Source: a phage
DNA length: 49,911 nucleotides
Sequence record: PZ445414.1
Strand: one strand, 5' to 3'
The notes under the pieces were generated by a model. That model was not told the origin of the DNA and searched no databases. It was given only the letters and a program-made list of their open reading frames with translations. Both the position numbers and the translations under genes were made by a program. Positions 26,163-40,851 of this stretch are shown here, piece after piece. Positions within the stretch are counted from its first letter, which is position 1. Every line of letters begins with the position of its first letter.

Positions 26163-27119
26163 TTACCGTGTCGGGAGTAAAGTCTCAGGCTTGTAAAGCT
26201 TTCGCTCTATCCCTTGCCGGAAATTATCGTTAACAGGAAGCATTACGTCAAGTCCTCTCTCCTCAGCGGCAATTATCACGTCCTGATCGGTTGACTTGCA
26301 CACCACGCGCATTTTTCGATCTCCTTTATACCGATGCGCAACAATCTCAACGTTATAACTTGAGAAGCAAGCCCACACCTCCTGGCCTGTAGATAGGTGA
26401 ATGTGTTGAGCATCAACCCAATCAACGCACAGATAGATCGTGTTGTCAGTTTTACCAGTCACCGCAACGGAGCCTCGCGTATAGTCCTTTGCATAGAAAC
26501 TTTTCTCGCCTAGCTCGTCAATCATGAGGATGTTACACATTTCATCATCTAAACCATCGTCATGCACAAGGTAGCAAGGGATTGCATGAATAAGCGATTC
26601 TCCGCCATTCTCCAGCGATTTTACGCCTACAGAGTACATTTCATCATCTGGCGGAGCGATGCCCTCAAAAACGCTTAGGGGCGTTTTTAGCACGCCTTTG
26701 GTTCTCTCCATTACTGCAACGCAGTTTTCATGTGGAGCCTGGGATCCAAAAGAGTAACCTGATGCGCGGGAGGCTCGCTTGTTCGCCTTAACTATATACT
26801 CCTGAGGAACCTTTCCGAGAAAGCGCCCTAAGATGTTGATGCACTCGCTATATGATTCGCCAGTGAGCTTCATTAGCCAGCCAATACCGCTATCGTTCCC
26901 ACAACCGTTGCACACTGCGCCGCCGTCTCCGTCAGTGCTAAGTTTGTCAGTCCAGCGGAATCTGTCTTTACCTCCGCAGTGGGGGCAAGGTTGGTGTTTC
27001 TTGTTGAAAACGTCATTGCTCAATCCGCAAAGGCTTTGTAGCGCATCGCGCCACATGCCTTTCATGTACGGCAAAACGTCCTCTTTCTGAAAAATCATGT
27101 TTGGGTGTACTTCTTGCAT
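26163..27119 (-). CDS. DNA primase (zinc-ribbon type, putative)
   Basis: CPHCGG ... CNGCG zinc-ribbon motif near N-terminus; ATG 27119 after GGAGCGAG; adjacent to helicase gene. Confidence 0.5.
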   Translation of the reverse strand: MQEVHPNMIFQKEDVLPYMKGMWRDALQSLCGLSNDVFNKKHQPCPHCGGKDRFRWTDKLSTDGDGGAVCNGCGNDSGIGWLMKLTGESYSECINILGRFLGKVPQEYIVKANKRASRASGYSFGSQAPHENCVAVMERTKGVLKTPLSVFEGIAPPDDEMYSVGVKSLENGGESLIHAIPCYLVHDDGLDDEMCNILMIDELGEKSFYAKDYTRGSVAVTGKTDNTIYLCVDWVDAQHIHLSTGQEVWACFSSYNVEIVAHRYKGDRKMRVVCKSTDQDVIIAAEERGLDVMLPVNDNFRQGIERKLYKPETLLPTR

Positions 27120-27131
27120 GACTCGCTCCAA

Positions 27132-27170
27132 TAAAAAAATCGCGTAGCCGGATGATACCAGATACGCGAT
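27132..27170 (-). terminator. terminator-like hairpin after HTH gene (minus)
   Basis: fwd aaaaaaa atcgcgta ... tacgcgat (8-bp stem, 16-nt loop). Confidence 0.4.
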
Positions 27171-27177
27171 CTTTGAT

Positions 27178-27618
27178 TTAGCTATTTGTGCTGTTTATGA
27201 AGTCCGACTCTTTCACTACGCGCAGCATTTCGTATCGGTCGCATTTCGTCGTTAACGCTTTGCCGTTTGAGTCAAATCTCAGATCTGGACGGCAGAATGA
27301 AGCGCGATAGCCCTTGCAGCCGTTTCGCTTATAGTCGGCGTGAACCTTTTCGGCTCCAGAAACGGAAATCATTCCGCGCTTGCGCCACTGCTGGATAACC
27401 TGGTGAGTAACCTTTAAGCGCCTTGTCATTTCTGCCTGAGATCCGTAATATTCGCAAACGGCATCCAGACGAGCACGCAATCCGGCTTTGACTTCATCCT
27501 TTAGAACGTAGTAGCCTGTTTTGCGCTTGCGCTTTTTCTTGTCTTTACCGCGCTTTACACCGTTGTTGCCATTGATTGTGCGCTTGTCAATTTCGCCAGT
27601 TGATGCAGCAATTTTCAT
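27178..27618 (-). CDS. HTH DNA-binding protein (Cro/YdaS-like, putative regulator)
   Basis: 146 aa from ATG 27618 (SD GGAGG); basic N-terminus; HTH-like SQAEMTRRLKVTHQVIQQWRKRGMIS. Confidence 0.45.
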   Translation of the reverse strand: MKIAASTGEIDKRTINGNNGVKRGKDKKKRKRKTGYYVLKDEVKAGLRARLDAVCEYYGSQAEMTRRLKVTHQVIQQWRKRGMISVSGAEKVHADYKRNGCKGYRASFCRPDLRFDSNGKALTTKCDRYEMLRVVKESDFINSTNS

Positions 27619-27706: not shown

Positions 27707-29707
27707 ATGGCAATTCCAAATATTGACAAACAGCTTTCCGCTTTGGGTGAAGCGGTAATCAAGGCGATTCAAGATCGCTTTACGTTTGGCGGAATCACCC
27801 CATACCCTTACCAGTGCGTTGCGTACACTGAGATCGCAAAACGCATGAAAAATTACGAACATCCTTTCTTTGTGAAAGCGTCCGTATCTGCTGGCAAAAC
27901 AATGATTTTTGCAATGGTCGCGGCGCAGTGTCAGAGGATGGGGCTTAAAATGATGGTTCTCGCTCGCCAGGGTGAGATTGTGGATCAGGATTCAGAGGAG
28001 ATCAGTAATTTCGGAGTGCCTAACTCCGTCTACTGCGCGGCGCTGAAACTCAAGGGCGTACACTTCCCCATCGTGGTTGGCTCTGAGGGAACCGTTTCAA
28101 ACGGACTCTTTAAGGCGCTGGGCGACTACGTGCCGCACGTTATCGGGATTGACGAATGCCACCAGGTAGATTGGGAGGATTTAGCGGAGGCAATCGAAAA
28201 CGATGAGCCGTGGCAGCAAATGACCACGAAAAAAGGCGAGATTGTCCTGAATGGTGACGGCTCCCGCGCTCTCAACAATGACGGTGAGCCAATGGAGGGA
28301 ACCGGACGCACGCAATACACTCTTATAATTCGAGAAATGCAGCGCCGATGCAAAGAGACATACGGGCATGAGTTGCGCATTTTTGGAATGACTGGATCAG
28401 AATTTCGCGGCGTTGTTCCAATCCTGGTAGAAGATAAGCGCCAGCGCGGTTTCTGGCGTGAACAGGTGACGAACATTGATACCAACTACCTTATCAAGTT
28501 CGGCTCCGTTGTGCCTACAAACTTTGGCGGCGTAGATGGATTGGGTTATGACCTTTCAGAGTTCACCGCATCCAGCGAGGACGGAGTAGCAGACTTTGAC
28601 CAGAAAACCCTCCGAAAGATGGAGGAGAAGATCCATAAAGATGCAACCATGACGCAAAAAATCATGGCACGCGTGCATGAGATCTGCAAAGACCGCAACG
28701 GCGTGCTGGTAACTTGCGCTGGAGAGCGTCACTGCAAAGAGGCTGCCGCCGCACTTCCGCCAGGGGCAACATACAGGATCATCACTGGCAAGACCGGAGA
28801 GAAACAACGTAAAGAATGGTTAAAAGAGGCATTCGAGGGAAAAGTAAAATACATTTTCCAGGTTCAAGCACTAACAACTGGCGTAAACGTTCCATATTGG
28901 GATACGTCCGTTATCCTGCGCAAAATAGGATCGCTTACTCTGCTGATCCAGCTTTTGGGGCGCGGTATGCGACTTTTAAAGAAATGGCACATCGAGCAAG
29001 GATTCAAAAAAGACGATCACCTTGTTCTCGACTTTGCCGGATGCATGGACGAGTTGGGGCAGCTTTACTTTGATCCTATTCTGGAACAGGCGCAATATCA
29101 GCGACGTGGCGATAACGGAAAGGATCCCAAATTCTGCCCTGACTGCGGCACTGAAAACTCATTCTATGCACGCCGTTGCGTTCACGTTGACGAAAACGGG
29201 AATCGATGCGAGTATTTTTGGAAGTATCGAGAGTGCGAGGATCAGGTAGACCCGCGCACTAAAAAGGTTATCGTCAAAGGCTGCGGCACTAAAAACGACA
29301 TAGCCGCCAGGGTTTGCCGCTGCTGTGATGTGTCGCTCATTGACCCGAACGAAAAACTATCAGGCAAGCACTACACTAAGAATGATTGGTGCAATGTGAA
29401 ATCTTTCCGTGTCGATATGACCAAAAACCAGAGAGGGATCGTGTTCTGTTATGAGCTTGAGGCGCACGGGGAAACGTTCAAGGCTTATGAGCGATTCTTC
29501 CCTGAGTCTGACAACCAGATCTGCAAGACGCTATGGAGGCAAACGGCGCTCAAGCATATTGCAGATCGCAGGATTGCAGGTGTTACGGCGAGCTATCGCA
29601 ACGCTCGCAAGATTATGCAAAACGCGCATCACATTATGGCTCCGAAACGCGTTACGCATCGCAAAAACGCGAAAGGAGAGGACATTATTTATCATCGGGA
29701 GTTTTGA
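27707..29707 (+). CDS. ATP-dependent helicase (SF2, DEAH-like)
   Basis: 666 aa; Walker A SVSAGKTM, motif II GIDECHQV; C-terminal Cys clusters. Confidence 0.7.
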   Translation: MAIPNIDKQLSALGEAVIKAIQDRFTFGGITPYPYQCVAYTEIAKRMKNYEHPFFVKASVSAGKTMIFAMVAAQCQRMGLKMMVLARQGEIVDQDSEEISNFGVPNSVYCAALKLKGVHFPIVVGSEGTVSNGLFKALGDYVPHVIGIDECHQVDWEDLAEAIENDEPWQQMTTKKGEIVLNGDGSRALNNDGEPMEGTGRTQYTLIIREMQRRCKETYGHELRIFGMTGSEFRGVVPILVEDKRQRGFWREQVTNIDTNYLIKFGSVVPTNFGGVDGLGYDLSEFTASSEDGVADFDQKTLRKMEEKIHKDATMTQKIMARVHEICKDRNGVLVTCAGERHCKEAAAALPPGATYRIITGKTGEKQRKEWLKEAFEGKVKYIFQVQALTTGVNVPYWDTSVILRKIGSLTLLIQLLGRGMRLLKKWHIEQGFKKDDHLVLDFAGCMDELGQLYFDPILEQAQYQRRGDNGKDPKFCPDCGTENSFYARRCVHVDENGNRCEYFWKYRECEDQVDPRTKKVIVKGCGTKNDIAARVCRCCDVSLIDPNEKLSGKHYTKNDWCNVKSFRVDMTKNQRGIVFCYELEAHGETFKAYERFFPESDNQICKTLWRQTALKHIADRRIAGVTASYRNARKIMQNAHHIMAPKRVTHRKNAKGEDIIYHREF

Positions 29708-32193: not shown

Positions 32194-33312
32194 ATGATTC
32201 AGAAAATGACAGATCAGCAGTTTAAAGACGCACGAGCGGAGGGTAAAACCTACAAGCAGATCGCGGAGGAGTTCGGCTTGAATGTTCGCACCGTTGAGCG
32301 CCGCGCCGCTCGCCTGGCTCGCGCAGGTGAAACCGAAATCAAAGGAGCACCAGGTTTTGCGGTTGTTCGTGAGTCAGTCCTTACCCGCGCAAACGGCGAA
32401 GAAGTGATGCGCTGGACTATCACCAACAAAGATAAAGAGCAGTTGGAAGCACTCATGCAAGCCGCGATGGATGCATTTGCTGAGGAAGTTCCGCGCCTTG
32501 AGCCTCAGCCGGAAAGCCGAAAGGACTACAGCGAAAGCCTGGCGCTATACCCTATCTTTGACATGCACATTGGCGCAATGGCTCACAAGCATGAATGTGG
32601 TGAGAATTGGGACACGGCAACAGCCGAGAAGGTCATGAATGACTTCTTTGATTATGCGGTTGAGTGTGCGCCAAATAGCGAGAAAGCCGTGCTCCTGATT
32701 GGTGGAGACATGCTTCACAGTGACGGCCTGGAGGCTGTAACACCTGCCAGCGGTCACGTTCTGGATCAGGATAGCCGCTACGCCAAACTTGTTTATGTCG
32801 CAATCCGAGCAACTCGCCGCGCTATCTCATTGATGTTGACCAAGCACAAAGAAGTTGAAATTCAGGTAATCGAGGGCAATCATGACCAATCAGGCATGAT
32901 CTGGCTACGCGCAGCAATGGCTGCGGCATACGAGGACGAGCCGCGCGTGATGGTTGATGTTTCACCTCGCGTAGTGCATCACACGCAGTACGGAAAAACA
33001 TTCCTCGCGTATCATCACGGTCACACCGTGCGCAAGCCGGAAACGTTATTGATGATGTGTGCGGCAGATTGGCGAGAGGATTTTGGCAAATCAAAATCAA
33101 TGTATGCTCATGTAGGCCATTGGCATCACCAGACCGTAACAGAAACCAGCCTGGGTATTGTTGAAGTTCACAGCACTATGGCGGCTAAAGATGCGTATGC
33201 GGCACGTGGCGGCTGGCGCTCTCGTCGTCGCGCTGCGGTTATAATCTACGACAAAGAGCACGGCGAGATCGGTCGATTCATGTTCTACCCTGAAATGATG
33301 GAGTCAAAATAA
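32194..33312 (+). CDS. metallophosphoesterase (calcineurin-like) with N-terminal HTH
   Basis: motifs DMH, GDMLHSD, GNHDQ, YHHGH, HVGHWHH; N-terminal YKQIAEEFGLNVRTVERR HTH-like segment. Confidence 0.6.
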   Translation: MIQKMTDQQFKDARAEGKTYKQIAEEFGLNVRTVERRAARLARAGETEIKGAPGFAVVRESVLTRANGEEVMRWTITNKDKEQLEALMQAAMDAFAEEVPRLEPQPESRKDYSESLALYPIFDMHIGAMAHKHECGENWDTATAEKVMNDFFDYAVECAPNSEKAVLLIGGDMLHSDGLEAVTPASGHVLDQDSRYAKLVYVAIRATRRAISLMLTKHKEVEIQVIEGNHDQSGMIWLRAAMAAAYEDEPRVMVDVSPRVVHHTQYGKTFLAYHHGHTVRKPETLLMMCAADWREDFGKSKSMYAHVGHWHHQTVTETSLGIVEVHSTMAAKDAYAARGGWRSRRRAAVIIYDKEHGEIGRFMFYPEMMESK

Positions 33313-34322: not shown

Positions 34323-34714
34323 AACGATTAGCTTTGGCGGTACTGGTTGCCGCCTCTCTTTCTGGTTGTTCAGCGTCAAGCGCTCTGAGCGGTTTAATCG
34401 GCAGCAAGCCGGAAATCACAGCACAGGCCGGAGCCGAAAACGTAAAGCAAACAGTAGGCGTGACGGCAAAGAATGACGAGAGCAGCAAGCAGGAAAACAC
34501 GATCAAGGATTCGCAGGTTGGCAAGGTTGACTCCTCCAACAAAAAGAAGGTGAGCACTTCAAGCATCCAGGCTGAGACAATCACAGCCGACAAGATCGAG
34601 ATCAGAAACAGCGAGAGCGATTTGTATGTGATGTTCTTTGCGCTTGCTTGCTTATTTGTTGCTGGCTTTGCCGCTGGCGTTTTTTGGAAGGGCAGAAAAA
34701 ATAAAGGGGCATAA
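34319..34714 (+). CDS. unimolecular spanin (lipoprotein with C-terminal TMD)
   Basis: N-terminal lipobox LSGC, C-terminal TM helix [22 protein letters not shown]; position after endolysin, as for T1 gp11-type u-spanins. Confidence 0.7.
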
Positions 34715-34727
34715 TGCCCCTTTTTTC
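34706..34727. terminator. bidirectional terminator after spanin gene
   Basis: aaaggggc ataat gcccc tttttt. Confidence 0.7.
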
Positions 34728-34917
34728 ATTCCAGTAGTCTGACGTTGACTAATACAACTCCGTCCTCGTCGTGCAGGTTGTGCTCCTTTGCCGGATTAGC
34801 TCGCATATCGCTGTACAGGATCAGGAGCAGCGCCGCAATCATTTCGTCATGCGATACCGAATTTTTTGCGCAGTGCATCATAATCGCATCTATTAGATTT
34901 TGTGTTGAATAATTCAT
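34726..34917 (-). CDS. hypothetical protein (uncertain start)
   Basis: 63-aa ORF overlapping end of 34847..35239; real start may be internal. Confidence 0.25.
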   Translation of the reverse strand: MNYSTQNLIDAIMMHCAKNSVSHDEMIAALLLILYSDMRANPAKEHNLHDEDGVVLVNVRLLE

Positions 34918-35239
34918 CGTCGCTTAACTCGTCAAGGTGAAACAGATCGTAAATGTATTTATTGCTCTCACCCTCCAGGCTATACAGTTCAAACCCAAAC
35001 GGCCTCTTGTGCGAGCCGTGGCACGTCACTACGCCTTTATCTATCCCAAGATATCCCAATGTAGCCATTCGCGGGATAAACTCAAGAGAAACGCTTGAGG
35101 CGAATTTGCGAGGAGTCATATTGGCGGCTCTTGCGAGCCGCTCACATTCTTTGTGCTGAAAAACAAATCTGGCTAAGTGCTGACGGTTAAACCAATCGTA
35201 ACTTTCGCAAAACTTATACAGATCCAGCAGAAACATCAT
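34847..35239 (-). CDS. hypothetical protein
   Basis: 130-aa ORF; ATG shortly after stop of upstream P-loop gene. Confidence 0.45.
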   Translation of the reverse strand: MMFLLDLYKFCESYDWFNRQHLARFVFQHKECERLARAANMTPRKFASSVSLEFIPRMATLGYLGIDKGVVTCHGSHKRPFGFELYSLEGESNKYIYDLFHLDELSDDELFNTKSNRCDYDALRKKFGIA

Positions 35240-35242
35240 TTA

Positions 35243-36820
35243 TCACCCCATTAAAGCAGGATTCACAAACACGCGCCCATTCGTGAGGCATACGTAATTC
35301 AGATCTTCAAGGATTGGCAGTAAGTGATCTTCAATTCGCTTCATCACGCCAGCCTGACCTAAGAACGGACGAACCTTTCGCACAGATTCGTAAATCGCTC
35401 GCGCAGTGATAGCGCCCTTGTTGGCTTTTCCGAGTCTGGTTATCGTGTCGATAATCTTGATCAACTCTGCATCCTGACCAGCATGACCGGAGGCGTTTGC
35501 CGCGCTAATGTAGGTCTTGCTCAACTCCTGGAACATCAAGAGCGCCTCCTGCATCGTCTCAACGTCAATCTCTCGTGACTTTGTGGCGGTTCCGTTAACA
35601 TCCTGCCAGTTTCGGATCGTGTGAATAACGGATGCCAGGCGAATGACTTGTTTATCCATTTTACCCAACGCGCCGCGTAGCATGGTGTGAGAATATTCTC
35701 CTCCGTCTGCAAGCTTTGGCTCCATTTCCTGGCGTGCCATGTTGAGCACTCGCATAGCGGAGCGGCTAACCTTTAATGAAACGGATTGCTCCATCATGAT
35801 ATTATGGATCAGCTTGTAATAATCCGCCTTAAGACCTGCATCAACTGGCGTGTAGGTTGTGTCTCCGTTGTCGTCAACGAATTTACGGCGGCCTAAGAAT
35901 GACTCCTCGCGCACCAGCAGGAAACGCTCAGAAACACCGATACCACGAGCACCAGCCTCCATAATGCCGCTGATTGTTTCGTCCTGCGCAATCACAGCCA
36001 TGCAGCCGAGAGCCGTAAAGCTCATGTTGTTTTCTGCAGTTGCACGGGCAATGGAAACGTGACCGCTATCCCAAGCCTTTAGCACCAATTCGCTGTTAGT
36101 CTTGCGCTCGCTATTGGCGTATGTCAGACCGAGCAGTGAGTTGATACTTGTTGCCTCGTCCGAGATAACAGCAAAGTTGCCCTGGCGGAAGTTGATTTTA
36201 GCCAAACCCTCTGGAGTGGTGTCTGAAACCGGAAACACCACATCGCACAGTTTTGCAAGCTTTTCCTCATACTCCTCTTTTTCCTCGTAAAGAGCGGCAT
36301 ACTCAGTGCCGGAGCGCTCGCTCTTTAATTCCTTTACGATCCCGTTGAGTTTGGCCTGAATCTTTTTGCGCTCTTTCTTGCGTTGCTCGTTGATGCTCTC
36401 AACCTCTGCAACAATCGGAGCAATAGCCATTGAGTTGATCGCGGATTTACCAGTAGACGGCGGCTGGCTGGTAACAACGTATAGCGCCGTTGGCTGATCG
36501 GTTCCGTGGTACTCCACGGTGAATCGTCCGAGCATTGCGGCAGACACGCAGCCTACAAAGTGCATATAGGCAGATGAAACAGGGAATTGCACAGACTCCG
36601 CCAGGCTGCGAGACAACTTGCCTACAACGTCGCAATCGTTGCCGAGGGAAATAACAGGGTATTTGTCGTTTCCGCTGTTAATGTCCTTCACGTCACCCCA
36701 AAAACCAGACGAGCGAGAGTATCCGTTTGCCTGGATTGCAACCTTAACGGCGCTCAAGCCTTGAGCCTCAGCCGTTGAAATGATTTGTTGTGGTGTCAGC
36801 GTGGATTGTTCAAAAAACAT
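35243..36820 (-). CDS. P-loop NTPase (putative replication/DNA-metabolism ATPase)
   Basis: 525 aa; Walker A-like SQPPSTGKSA; box promoter with hairpin-embedded TATAAT upstream. Confidence 0.45.
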   Translation of the reverse strand: MFFEQSTLTPQQIISTAEAQGLSAVKVAIQANGYSRSSGFWGDVKDINSGNDKYPVISLGNDCDVVGKLSRSLAESVQFPVSSAYMHFVGCVSAAMLGRFTVEYHGTDQPTALYVVTSQPPSTGKSAINSMAIAPIVAEVESINEQRKKERKKIQAKLNGIVKELKSERSGTEYAALYEEKEEYEEKLAKLCDVVFPVSDTTPEGLAKINFRQGNFAVISDEATSINSLLGLTYANSERKTNSELVLKAWDSGHVSIARATAENNMSFTALGCMAVIAQDETISGIMEAGARGIGVSERFLLVREESFLGRRKFVDDNGDTTYTPVDAGLKADYYKLIHNIMMEQSVSLKVSRSAMRVLNMARQEMEPKLADGGEYSHTMLRGALGKMDKQVIRLASVIHTIRNWQDVNGTATKSREIDVETMQEALLMFQELSKTYISAANASGHAGQDAELIKIIDTITRLGKANKGAITARAIYESVRKVRPFLGQAGVMKRIEDHLLPILEDLNYVCLTNGRVFVNPALMG

Positions 36821-36876
36821 CTTAAAGTCTCCTTGTTGGTTGACCTGTATTATAGGTCAACCATCTTACAGCCTTT

Positions 36877-36896
36877 TGGCAATTCGTGCTATTTTA
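36877..36896 (-). promoter_or_regulatory. conserved box upstream of P-loop ATPase gene
   Basis: minus AAAATAGCACGAATTGCCAA; TATAAT inside hairpin GGTTGACC/GGTCAACC. Confidence 0.5.
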
Positions 36897-40280: not shown

Positions 40281-40390
40281 GATGATTTGGTGATTTTCTG
40301 ACCTGCATTTTGATGGTTAGTTTGATGTGCGTCAGCTTTTGACGAGATTTGATGATTGTTGATTAGATTTGATTGAATTTGATTGTGGGA
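40281..40390. repeat. iteron-like array of ATTTGAT(G/T) repeats
   Basis: TTTGAT at 40309, 40321, 40348, 40358, 40367, 40378 with ~10-12 bp spacing inside 690-bp non-coding AT-rich region. Confidence 0.55.
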
Positions 40391-40554
40391 ATCAGCATGG
40401 TCTGACGATGCCGTTTTTGCGCTCTCGAAAACTCCGCTCTGTTATCTTCTGTTTACACTCGTTTCCTCTTGTTACCGAAAGTGCGGTGGCGTAGTTTGTT
40501 CGCGTTTTTCGCGTAGCAGAAACAAAAAAAACTTTTAATCCCCCTATAAACAAC

Positions 40555-40586
40555 TAATAAAATCAATAGTTTATTTTATATATATT
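40555..40586. repeat. conserved ~30-bp AT-rich element containing IHF-consensus-like AATCAATAGTTTA (copy B)
   Basis: taataaaatcaatagtttattttatatatat; matches WATCAANNNNTTR. Confidence 0.5.
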
Positions 40587-40851
40587 ATATTTGTTTTCAC
40601 TACGTTATACTTGTTCCACATGGTATGGGGTGGTTATGGGATTTTATTATTGGTGGTATTGGTTAATTTATAGGCATGTTCCGCTCAGGATGTGTGCGAC
40701 TCATCATTTCGTTGTGGTTGCTTTGGGTGACATATACATATTGATTATGGCCTCCGAAAAAACTGTAACAGCTGTAACATGCAAAAAACAGAATTTATCA
40801 TCATGCAAATCAACAACTTGCGATAAATTTTGTTTTTCGGCTCAAAAAAAA

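What the first reader, a model, noticed from the sequence alone, without database searches (positions are those of the whole stretch)
35243..36820. 525-aa P-loop protein of unclear role in the leftward early array
Seen in sequence: single Walker A-like motif (SQPPSTGKSA) in a large protein lacking the helicase motif II seen in 27707..29707; preceded by a box promoter whose TATAAT lies in a hairpin loop. Could be a replication initiator/ATPase or an anti-defence NTPase.
Basis: inference. Interest (0 to 1): 0.35.

Follow-up and report, generated by a model that had tools for sequence, protein, structure and literature searches.

The report
T1-like phage DUF3987 replicative helicase gene
The 525-aa "P-loop protein" is the conserved DUF3987 helicase of T1-like phages, an MCM-like ring ATPase that most likely unwinds DNA at the phage replication fork; it is already annotated as a putative helicase, so the finding is ordinary.

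Summary
The window is the whole genome of Escherichia phage IsaakIselin (Bas10, Drexlerviridae), rotated by 533 bases. The ORF at 35243..36820 (-) is real and is bas10_0048, annotated "putative helicase". It matches Pfam DUF3987 (E=1e-39) and PHROG 2373 "DNA helicase" (E=6e-236). Homologues occur in 924 phage records, including T1 gene ST9. The family also conserves a Walker B (FAVISDE), a beta-hairpin arginine (R259), a sensor-1 position (Q279), an MCM-style "SERF" arginine (R299) and lid residues (R382/K387). The AlphaFold model (pLDDT 89) resembles MCM and ComM helicases, but only moderately (TM 0.3-0.44). A profile-profile test against MCM was negative. I therefore file it under DUF3987, not MCM. 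Distant relatives are fused to DnaG, DnaB-N or PrimPol modules. One DUF3987 protein (AgaPH) is a proven 5'->3' helicase. Most likely role: hexameric replicative helicase working with the separate phage primase, SSB and host Pol III. There is no support for an anti-defence role. The "box promoter with TATAAT in a hairpin loop" is also real. The box is the 21-nt Drexlerviridae repeat already published for phage TLS, function unknown. Its fixed 22-nt distance to a -10-like hexamer and its covarying hairpin are the more open observation.

The parts
35243..36820 (-). CDS bas10_0048, 525 aa: DUF3987-family AAA+ helicase (stop codon included)
   Evidence: ORF list; identical to MZ501077.1 35776..37353, 'putative helicase'; Pfam PF13148 137 bits against a cutoff of 27; PHROG 2373
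36590..36820 (-). N-terminal region, aa 1-77: two short helices, a low-complexity linker and a helix. There is no MCM-type OB or Zn domain. In some relatives it is replaced by DnaG Zn-ribbon, DnaB_N or PrimPol modules
   Evidence: AF2 secondary structure; Pfam scan of fused relatives
35528..36589 (-). DUF3987 domain, aa 78-431 (AAA+ alpha/beta core plus lid)
   Evidence: Pfam envelope 78-431; domain model with pLDDT 85.5
36443..36466 (-). Walker A / P-loop, Q119-PPSTGKS-126
   Evidence: Invariant QPPSxGKS; K125 invariant family-wide; aligns to the MCM Walker A in hhalign
36251..36442 (-). Long antiparallel helical hairpin insert after the P-loop helix (aa 127-190, K/E-rich)
   Evidence: AF2 helices 125-167 and 171-190
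36155..36175 (-). Walker B, F216-AVISDE-222
   Evidence: Strand 216-220 in the model; E222 invariant, D221 replaced by A in 5 of 36 sequences; regex check
36014..36061 (-). Beta-hairpin aa 254-269 with invariant R259, placed just before beta-4: candidate pre-sensor-1 DNA-binding hairpin
   Evidence: AF2 strands 254-257 and 266-269; R259 invariant. The role is inferred by analogy with MCM
35978..35992 (-). IAQDE motif at the end of beta-4 (aa 277-281); Q279 is the sensor-1 candidate
   Evidence: Q279 invariant family-wide; strand 272-278
35921..35938 (-). G295-VSERF-300 before beta-5; R299 is the arginine-finger candidate (compare MCM 'SRF')
   Evidence: G295 and R299 invariant, E298 near-invariant; strand 300-304; the MCM core sequences show LLSRFDL
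35654..35677 (-). Lid motif R382-GALGKMD-389 (sensor-2 candidates R382 and K387)
   Evidence: K387 invariant, R382 and G383 near-invariant
35246..35422 (-). C-terminal winged-helix-like domain, aa 467-525
   Evidence: AF2 pattern of helices 473-480 and 492-506 followed by strands 510-513 and 516-519. PHROG 7327 matches aa 439-524. A C-terminal wHTH was noted for DUF3987 in PMC4889955
36829..36834 (-). Shine-Dalgarno sequence AAGGAG
   Evidence: Sequence; conserved in orthologue leaders
36837..36863 (-). Perfect 10-bp stem with 7-nt loop, carrying the -10-like hexamer at its apex
   Evidence: Conserved by covariation in orthologous leaders: 34 of 40 have stems of at least 7 bp against 12.5% of shuffles, with 20 distinct arm sequences
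36849..36854 (-). TATAAT (-10-like hexamer), 22 nt downstream of TTGCCA
36874..36894 (-). One copy of the 21-nt Drexlerviridae intergenic repeat aaATAGCACnnnTTGnTAAAA (the 'box')
   Evidence: 24 copies against 1.9 expected; published for TLS, T1 and Rtp (PMC11447400)
34847..35239 (-). Downstream 130-aa ORF bas10_0047 (PHROG 2794, unknown function), 3 nt after the helicase stop codon and syntenic in all relatives examined
34703..34723 (.). Bidirectional terminator-like hairpin that closes the leftward array against the convergent lysis cassette
   Evidence: equivalent terminators are annotated in T1 and KP36
26163..27119 (-). Likely partner: stand-alone primase bas10_0032. It has the primase-helicase Zn ribbon and matches only the N-terminal half of primase-helicase PHROG 510
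   Evidence: Pfam PF08273; PHROG 510 profile positions 10-317 of 667

Best explanation
The ORF encodes the DUF3987-family helicase that is a core gene of T1-like (Drexlerviridae) phages. It is an AAA+ ATPase with an MCM/ComM-like core.

Inferred mechanism. Subunits assemble into a ring. ATP binds at subunit interfaces, using Walker A K125 and Walker B E222 of one subunit and the R299 arginine finger of its neighbour. The conserved beta-hairpin (R259) in the central channel pulls single-stranded DNA through the ring and unwinds the duplex at the phage replication fork. The phage has no DNA polymerase. The helicase would therefore work with the separately encoded Zn-ribbon/Toprim-type primase (bas10_0032), the phage SSB and host DNA polymerase III. 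The C-terminal winged helix and the short N-terminal domain are candidate DNA- or partner-binding modules.

What is shown: family membership, conservation of the catalytic residues, the predicted fold, synteny and the domain fusions. What is inferred: ring assembly, polarity, the partners and the role in replication.
For: - Family membership: Pfam DUF3987, E=1.1e-39, covering 352 of 364 model positions; PHROG 2373 'DNA helicase', E=6e-236.
- Conservation: 924 phage records hold a homologue, 909 of them full length, including T1 ST9 at 58% identity. Synteny is conserved across five subfamilies or genera.
- Catalytic residues: K125, E222, R259, Q279, R299 and K387 are invariant across the family down to about 23% identity.
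- Predicted fold: AF2 model with pLDDT 89.2 and pTM 0.86. All 50 top PDB matches are MCM subunits, best E=1.7e-5. The domain-only model again returns MCM subunits plus the ComM helicase. The viral structure library returns DUF3987 helicases, many fused to primases.
- Fusions: distant representatives carry an N-terminal DnaG CHC2 Zn ribbon (P0152), a DnaB N-terminal domain (P0184) or an NrS-1 polymerase HBD (P0256).
- Literature: DUF3987 was predicted to be an SF6 replicative helicase with a C-terminal wHTH, and the N4 dns protein of this family is essential for replication (PMC4889955). The PriCT-DUF3987 protein AgaPH is an oligomeric, ATP/dATP-dependent 5'->3' helicase that Walker A or Walker B mutations abolish (PMC11724360).
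- Genome context: no DNA polymerase gene is annotated (PMC11447400 says the same for T1 and TLS). The primase matches only the primase half of a primase-helicase family.
Against: - No experiment exists on this protein or on any Drexlerviridae orthologue; I found none in the literature searches.
- The primase gene is about 8 kb away, not adjacent.
- The phage has a second helicase of the SF2 type (27707..29707), placed next to the primase. The TLS authors treat that one as the replication helicase.
- The structural similarity to MCM is only moderate: TM 0.29-0.44, and the best domain-level E-value is 2e-3.
- My profile-profile comparison with an MCM core profile aligned only the P-loop, with probability 2%.
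- Polarity and oligomeric state are unknown. MCM runs 3'->5' whereas the one tested DUF3987 helicase runs 5'->3'.
Confidence: 0.72

Rival explanations
1. Self-loading initiator-helicase. Besides unwinding, the protein would recognise the phage origin itself through its C-terminal winged helix and/or N-terminal domain, melt the origin and load itself, as SF3 viral initiators and staphylococcal island Rep helicases do. This refines the helicase reading and does not oppose it.
For: - No DnaA-, lambda O/P- or DnaC-like initiator or loader is annotated in the genome.
- A C-terminal winged-helix-like domain is predicted, and it is a general feature of the family (PMC4889955).
- A candidate AT-rich region (24% GC, with ATTTGATTGA repeats) lies at the head of the same leftward array.
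Against: - No iterons were found next to or inside the gene. The TLS authors report none anywhere in that genome.
- Sequence-specific DNA binding is untested.
- T1-like phages carry a RecE/Erf recombination module, so replication could start by recombination without any origin-binding protein.
Confidence: 0.2
2. Recombination or repair motor. The protein would be a ComM/RuvB-like branch-migration or fork-restart helicase serving recombination-dependent replication, and the SF2 helicase next to the primase would be the fork helicase.
For: - The ComM helicase (8rxd_D) ranks second in the domain-level structure search.
- The SF2 helicase sits beside the primase and is the one named as the replication helicase for TLS.
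- The phage encodes RecE-like exonuclease and annealing proteins.
Against: - The gene is not in the recombination module.
- Relatives are fused specifically to primase or PrimPol and DnaB_N modules, which are fork proteins.
- The one characterised family member pairs with a primase-polymerase.
- SF2 helicases are rarely the replicative helicase of dsDNA phages, according to PMC4889955.
Confidence: 0.07
3. Anti-defence or host-takeover NTPase that plays no part in replication.
For: The only support is its position in an early-looking leftward array made mostly of small ORFs of unknown function.
Against: - It is a universally conserved, syntenic core gene of constant length, unlike typical accessory anti-defence genes.
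- It has clear helicase-family membership and primase fusions.
- It gives no hit in PADLOC, though that library covers defence proteins, not anti-defence proteins.
Confidence: 0.02

Closest known systems
AgaPH, the PriCT-DUF3987 helicase of a Seonamhaeicola mobile element (PMC11724360)
   Same: [quoted passage not shown] It is encoded by a mobile element or virus that brings its own primase. It is the only family member with biochemistry: an oligomer with ATP/dATP-dependent 5'->3' unwinding.
   Different: AgaPH has an N-terminal PriCT domain and sits directly downstream of an AEP primase-polymerase that it binds. The phage protein has a different short N-terminus. Its likely partner is a DnaG/T7-type Zn-ribbon primase encoded 8 kb away, and polymerisation must come from the host.
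Other phage DUF3987 proteins: T1 ST9, TLS and Rtp orthologues, N4 dns, mycobacteriophage Corndog SF6 protein (PMC4889955)
   Same: T1 ST9 is the direct orthologue: 58% identity, same length, same synteny and the same upstream box and hairpin. The family as a whole is predicted to be replicative helicases with a C-terminal wHTH.
   Different: N4 dns and many actinophage members are fused to AEP primase domains. The Drexlerviridae proteins are stand-alone helicases.
MCM (SF6) helicases of archaea and eukaryotes
   Same: MCM gives the best structural matches in the PDB. The order of elements is the same: P-loop, Walker B, beta-hairpin, sensor-1 strand, 'S(E)RF' arginine, lid, C-terminal winged helix.
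   Different: - There is no detectable Pfam MCM match and no profile-profile match.
- There is no N-terminal OB-fold/Zn domain and no helix-2 insert in the model.
- A 65-residue helical hairpin is inserted after the P-loop helix.
- The only measured polarity in DUF3987 (5'->3') is opposite to that of MCM.
ComM, the bacterial MCM-like AAA+ helicase of natural transformation (PDB 8rxd)
   Same: It ranks second as a structural match for the ATPase domain. It is a bacterial hexameric AAA+ DNA helicase.
   Different: ComM is a cellular recombination branch-migration motor with its own N-terminal domains. There is no sequence-level similarity.
21-nt intergenic direct repeats of phage TLS, aaATAGCACnnnTTGnTAAAA (PMC11447400)
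   Same: The 'box' upstream of the helicase gene is one copy of this repeat. It is co-oriented with transcription and lies 72 nt upstream of the start codon.
   Different: The paper leaves the function open, suggesting a stoperator, an enhancer site or an UP element. It does not report the fixed 22-nt distance to a -10-like hexamer or the covarying GC-rich hairpin seen here.

Membership tests
DUF3987 (Pfam PF13148) helicase family | Match to the family HMM above the curated gathering score | tested here: met
   137.2 bits against a cutoff of 27, E=1.1e-39, covering model positions 1-352 of 364
DUF3987 (Pfam PF13148) helicase family | Conserved Walker A lysine and Walker B acidic residue | tested here: met
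   K125 and E222 are invariant in 36 sequences down to about 23% identity
DUF3987 (Pfam PF13148) helicase family | [quoted passage not shown] | tested here: met
   The AF2 model shows a helix-helix-strand-strand unit at aa 473-519 with pLDDT of 85-94. The winged-helix identity was judged from the secondary-structure pattern only
DUF3987 (Pfam PF13148) helicase family | Association with a primase, either fused or encoded immediately upstream | tested here: inconclusive
   A stand-alone Zn-ribbon primase exists but lies about 8 kb away. Distant relatives are fused to DnaG Zn-ribbon, DnaB_N or NrS-1 HBD modules
DUF3987 (Pfam PF13148) helicase family | ATP-dependent DNA unwinding (5'->3' in AgaPH) | not testable with these tools
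   Needs biochemistry; known only for AgaPH (PMC11724360)
MCM / SF6 (Pfam PF00493) | Sequence-profile match to the MCM AAA+ core | tested here: not met
   No PF00493 hit at E<=1. hhalign against a 5-sequence MCM core profile aligned only the P-loop, with probability 0.5-2.3%. My MCM profile was shallow; PMC4889955 reports 98% HHsearch probability for another DUF3987 protein
MCM / SF6 (Pfam PF00493) | MCM-like AAA+ fold | tested here: inconclusive
   All top hits are MCM or ComM with Foldseek probability up to 1.0, but TM is only 0.29-0.44 and the best domain-level E-value is 2e-3
MCM / SF6 (Pfam PF00493) | Pre-sensor-1 beta-hairpin between Walker B and sensor 1 | tested here: met
   A predicted hairpin at aa 254-269 lies directly before strand 272-278 and carries the invariant R259. 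This rests on topology only; coordinates were not inspected
MCM / SF6 (Pfam PF00493) | Arginine finger in an SRF-type motif before beta-5 | tested here: met
   G295-VSERF-300 with invariant R299, followed by strand 300-304. MCM has LLSRFDL at this position
MCM / SF6 (Pfam PF00493) | N-terminal OB-fold/Zn-finger domain and helix-2 insert | tested here: not met
   The N-terminal 100 residues are mostly helical and too short. No beta-hairpin interrupts helix 203-213. Instead a helical hairpin spans aa 127-190
SF2 (DEAD/DEAH, ResIII) helicases | RecA-like tandem domains with motifs I, II (DExH) and a Helicase_C domain | tested here: not met
   No ResIII, DEAD or Helicase_C hit for this protein. 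The other phage helicase at 27707..29707 does have them
DnaB / SF4 replicative helicases | RecA-fold DnaB_C domain | tested here: not met
   No DnaB Pfam hit, and the structural matches are AAA+ MCM/ComM rather than DnaB
Canonical sigma-70 promoter (for the upstream 'box promoter') | -35 and -10 hexamers separated by 16-19 nt | tested here: not met
   TATAAT matches 6 of 6, but TTGCCA lies 22 nt upstream and the consensus scan reports no site
Drexlerviridae 21-nt intergenic repeat (PMC11447400) | Consensus aaATAGCACnnnTTGnTAAAA, intergenic, co-oriented with the downstream gene | tested here: met
   AAATAGCACGAATTGCCAAAA at 36874-36894 (-), with one mismatch to the consensus. It is one of 24 co-oriented copies

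The most novel reading that the evidence does not exclude
The part least explained by current knowledge is the expression module in front of the gene, not the protein. The published 21-nt Drexlerviridae repeat sits at a fixed 22-nt distance from a -10-like hexamer. A covarying GC-rich hairpin either fills that spacer or holds the -10 at its apex. This could define an unconventional promoter class. Examples would be an extended -10 or cruciform- and supercoiling-dependent promoter using the box as an UP-like or factor-binding site, or an overlapping terminator-promoter insulator. Either would answer the open question about what the repeats do. For the protein, the most novel reading not excluded is a minimal, self-loading MCM-like initiator-helicase with 5'->3' polarity that couples a bacterial-type primase and host Pol III.
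Probability: 0.25. Interest if true: 0.5.

Novelty: already known. Interest (0 to 1): 0.18.

Why it matters
For annotation, the result settles a "P-loop protein of unclear role". It is the DUF3987 helicase and a core replication gene of T1-like phages.

It also exposes an inconsistency in the field. Papers on T1 and TLS name the SF2 helicase beside the primase as the replication helicase. Family-level evidence points instead to the DUF3987 protein. T1-like phages are common laboratory contaminants and candidates for phage therapy, and their replication has hardly been studied. Knowing which helicase drives the fork, and how it recruits host Pol III, would be useful but not surprising.

The upstream box, hairpin and -10 module is of more general interest. 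Its function is an explicitly open question (PMC11447400), and the geometry reported here gives a direct hypothesis to test.

Tried and rejected
- Sequence search of the PDB with the single protein and with a 36-sequence profile gave only chance-level hits: a capsid protein at E=0.76 and FabG at E=0.26.
- NCBIfam and PADLOC gave no hits.
- A profile-profile comparison of two DUF3987 alignments with an MCM AAA+ core profile (built from PDB sequences retrieved) aligned only the P-loop, with probability 0.5-2.3%. The MCM link is therefore not claimed at sequence level.
- Modelling the ATPase domain alone to sharpen the fold comparison kept the same ranking but weakened the E-values: best 2e-3, TM at most 0.44.
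- I considered sigma-54 for the box, comparing TAGCAC-N3-TTGC with TGGCAC-N5-TTGC. I rejected it on inspection: the spacing is 2 nt short and AG replaces the GG.
- I considered an intrinsic terminator for the helicase-leader hairpin and rejected it, because no T-run follows. RNase III is unlikely with only a 10-bp stem (own knowledge).
- A search for iterons or tandem repeats near or within the gene as an origin found none. There is only an AT-rich region with short repeats about 3.5 kb upstream.
- Literature searches found no transcript mapping for Drexlerviridae and no genetic or biochemical work on T1 ST9.
Full report
**Identity of the window and the ORF.** A megablast of the region returns Escherichia phage IsaakIselin (Bas10; MZ501077.1; Drexlerviridae, Tempevirinae, Henuseptimavirus) at 100% identity. 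The record has the same length as the window, 49,911 bp. The window is that record rotated, so window coordinate = record coordinate - 533. The ORF 35243..36820 (-) is real: 525 aa, an ATG start, and AAGGAG 8 nt upstream. It is bas10_0048, deposited as "putative helicase".

**The observation.**
- The motif SQPPSTGKSA is at aa 118-127 and is the only GK[ST] in the protein.
- It is a deviant P-loop, with Q where G/A is usual. It is not a chance match: QPPSxGKS is invariant in 36 homologues down to 35% identity, and K125 remains invariant when distant family members at about 23% identity are added.
- The statement that the protein lacks helicase motif II is only half right. It has no SF2-type DExH box, whereas the SF2 helicase at 27707..29707 has DECH.
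- It does have a textbook Walker B: a hydrophobic strand followed by D-E (FAVISDE, aa 216-222), with E222 invariant.

**Family assignment.**
- Pfam gives DUF3987 (PF13148) at E=1.1e-39, covering nearly the whole model.
- PHROGs gives family 2373, "DNA helicase", at E=6e-236.
- NCBIfam, PADLOC and sequence searches of the PDB give nothing.
- A tblastn search of about 50,000 phage genomes finds a homologue in 924 records, 909 of them full length. Nearly all are T1-like phages of enterobacteria. T1 itself is included: ST9, 58% identity, annotated "DNA helicase".
- Synteny is constant in Tempevirinae, Tunavirinae, Rogunavirinae, Webervirus and Kyungwonvirus: small ORFs, the helicase, a 110-150-aa ORF, a terminator, then the convergent lysis cassette.
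- An exhaustive profile search finds 5,988 representative clusters at E<=1e-3.
- Many of these are 600-970-aa proteins in which the homologous part is C-terminal. Those I scanned carry a DnaG CHC2 zinc ribbon, a DnaB N-terminal domain or an NrS-1 polymerase domain at the N-terminus.

**Structure and catalytic residues.**
- AlphaFold2 with a 36-sequence alignment gives a confident model: pLDDT 89.2, pTM 0.86.
- The order of elements is as follows:
  - a short N-terminal region;
  - strand 114-118, then the P-loop;
  - a long helical hairpin, aa 125-190;
  - helix 203-213;
  - strand 216-220 carrying the Walker B;
  - a beta-hairpin at 254-269;
  - strand 272-278 ending in IAQDE;
  - GVSERF, then strand 300-304;
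  - a helical lid;
  - a C-terminal helix-helix-strand-strand unit.
- Across the whole family the invariant residues are P80, K125, E204, G214, E222, R259, Q279, G295, R299, E305 and K387. R382 and G383 are nearly invariant.
- These fall at the positions expected for an AAA+ Walker A lysine, Walker B glutamate, pore-hairpin arginine, sensor 1, arginine finger and sensor 2. The assignment of roles is by analogy and has not been demonstrated.

**Relation to MCM.**
- Foldseek against the PDB returns only MCM subunits in the top 50: eukaryotic Mcm2-7 and archaeal MCM. The best E-value is 1.7e-5 and the probability is 1.0.
- A model of residues 78-410 alone returns MCM again, plus the bacterial MCM-like helicase ComM at rank 2.
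- The scores are moderate: TM 0.29-0.44, and no domain-level hit below E=1e-3.
- I built an MCM core profile from five PDB sequences. hhalign aligned only the P-loop, with probability of 2% or less.
- Pfam MCM does not match.
- The model lacks the MCM N-terminal OB/Zn domain and the helix-2 insert.
- The protein is therefore MCM-like in fold and motif order, as Kazlauskas et al. proposed for DUF3987 (PMC4889955). It is not a member of the MCM family proper.

**What is known about the family.**
- Kazlauskas et al. (2016) classed phage DUF3987 proteins as divergent SF6 helicases with a C-terminal winged helix. They noted that these proteins are often fused to or encoded next to primases, and predicted them to be replicative helicases. 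The N4 dns protein, essential for replication, belongs to the family.
- In 2025 the PriCT-DUF3987 protein AgaPH was shown to be an oligomeric helicase with 5'->3' polarity, dependent on ATP or dATP. Walker A or Walker B mutations inactivate it, and it binds its primase-polymerase (PMC11724360).
- I found nothing on the Drexlerviridae orthologues.
- The 2024 re-annotation of TLS names the SF2 helicase and the primase as the replication proteins and does not discuss the DUF3987 gene.

**Most likely function.**
- The phage has no DNA polymerase (PMC11447400 says the same for T1 and TLS).
- It encodes an SSB, a RecE/Erf-type recombination pair, an SF2 helicase, and a stand-alone primase. The primase has the primase-helicase zinc ribbon and matches only the first half of a primase-helicase PHROG.
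- The best-supported reading is that the DUF3987 protein is the ring helicase of the phage replisome. It would supply in trans the helicase half that the primase lacks, and it would act with host Pol III. I give this a confidence of about 0.7.
- Rival readings are as follows:
  - A variant in which the protein also recognises the origin and loads itself is possible but has no direct support. No iterons are present. There is only an AT-rich stretch with short repeats at 40345-40650, in the divergent intergenic gap.
  - A recombination-motor role in the manner of ComM is less likely, given the primase fusions.
  - An anti-defence role has no support.

**The upstream "box promoter".**
The box ATAGCAC-N3-TTGNNAAA occurs 24 times in the genome against 1.9 expected, always co-oriented with the local genes.
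- It is the 21-nt repeat aaATAGCACnnnTTGnTAAAA published for TLS and also seen in T1 and Rtp. Its function is listed there as an open question (PMC11447400).
- The following observations are not reported in that paper:
  - In 13 of 24 IsaakIselin copies and 11 of 25 T1 copies, a -10-like hexamer lies exactly 22 nt after the TTGNNA hexamer. Almost none lie at the canonical 16-19 nt.
  - Several of these hexamers have a TGn extended -10.
  - A GC-rich hairpin either fills the spacer or encloses the -10 hexamer.
  - A conserved leader, CAACGAAACGAA...GAGGA, follows, and the start codon lies about 65 nt after TTG.
- The helicase copy has the hexamer TATAAT at the apex of a perfect 10-bp stem.
- In orthologous leaders from 80 related genomes, 34 of 40 distinct box-containing leaders keep a stem of at least 7 bp, against 12.5% of shuffled controls. 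They use 20 different arm sequences and keep a -10-like apex.
- The sigma-70 scan does not call a promoter at this site. Whether the module is a promoter, and whether the hairpin acts as DNA or as RNA, remains untested.

**Verdict.** The feature is real and the interpretation as a replication ATPase is broadly right. The gene is an already annotated member of a known helicase family, so interest is low. The upstream module is the more open item, and I have recorded it separately.

Noticed in passing
window-wide; e.g. + strand 1569, 22506, 27631, 30123, 31584, 41610, 42812, 44472, 45198, 47315; - strand 19972, 27194, 36892, 37781, 39086, 39821, 40266: There are 24 co-oriented copies of ATAGCAC-N3-TTGYTAAA, the published TLS 21-nt repeat. 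In 13 of them a -10-like hexamer lies exactly 22 nt downstream, often as TGnTATAGT. A GC-rich hairpin sits either inside that spacer or around the hexamer. A conserved leader CAACGAAACGAA..GAGGA follows, and the ATG lies about 65 nt after TTG. The same 22-nt geometry occurs in 11 of 25 T1 copies. It looks like a non-canonical promoter module.
   Followed up: partly
window 36837-36863 (-) and orthologous leaders in L002-L087: The hairpin in front of the helicase gene is conserved by covariation across Drexlerviridae, with 20 different arm sequences. 34 of 40 leaders have stems of at least 7 bp, against 12.5% of shuffles. A -10-like hexamer is always at the apex.
   Followed up: yes
L002 (T1) 962-1501, i.e. 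NC_005833.1 46085-46624: In T1 an HNH endonuclease ORF (ST8) lies directly upstream of the helicase gene. Its 3' end reads through the conserved box and hairpin module, so the module sits inside a coding sequence there.
   Followed up: no
window 27140-27194 (-), upstream of the primase gene: This box copy has a 9-12-bp hairpin with TATCAT in its loop, followed by a T-run, so it looks like an intrinsic terminator and a promoter overlapping. T1 annotates a terminator at the equivalent place (NC_005833.1 35930-35971).
   Followed up: no
window 40345-40650: The roughly 690-bp divergent intergenic gap between the leftward and rightward arrays has four ATTTGATTGA-like repeats (40347-40385), a 24% GC core (40500-40650) and an AT palindrome (40572-40590). 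This is a candidate origin or early control region.
   Followed up: partly
window 34847-35239 (-): The 130-aa ORF bas10_0047 (PHROG 2794, no Pfam match) starts 3 nt after the helicase stop codon. It follows the helicase gene in every relative examined (T1 ST10, KP36_068, tunzivis 'YdbL'). It may be a helicase partner.
   Followed up: partly
window 26163-27119 (-): The primase bas10_0032 matches only positions 10-317 of the 667-position primase-helicase PHROG 510. It carries the primase-helicase zinc ribbon (PF08273) and has no helicase half.
   Followed up: partly
proteins P0184 and P0152 (representative search): Distant DUF3987 proteins are fused to a DnaB N-terminal domain (P0184) or to a DnaG CHC2 zinc ribbon plus DUF6371 (P0152). 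In other words, an AAA+ helicase core carries modules normally attached to RecA-fold DnaB or to bacterial primase.
   Followed up: partly
one search hits H27 and H28 (MG065663, MG065643): 21 records named 'Campylobacter phage' carry this helicase at about 78% identity to the coliphage protein, in genomes of about 47-50 kb. They look like T1-like coliphages with a doubtful host label.
   Followed up: no
window 32194-33312 (+): The 372-aa 'hypothetical protein' bas10_0042 combines an N-terminal sigma-70 region-4-like HTH (Pfam PF08281) with PHROG 704, 'DNA repair exonuclease'.
   Followed up: no
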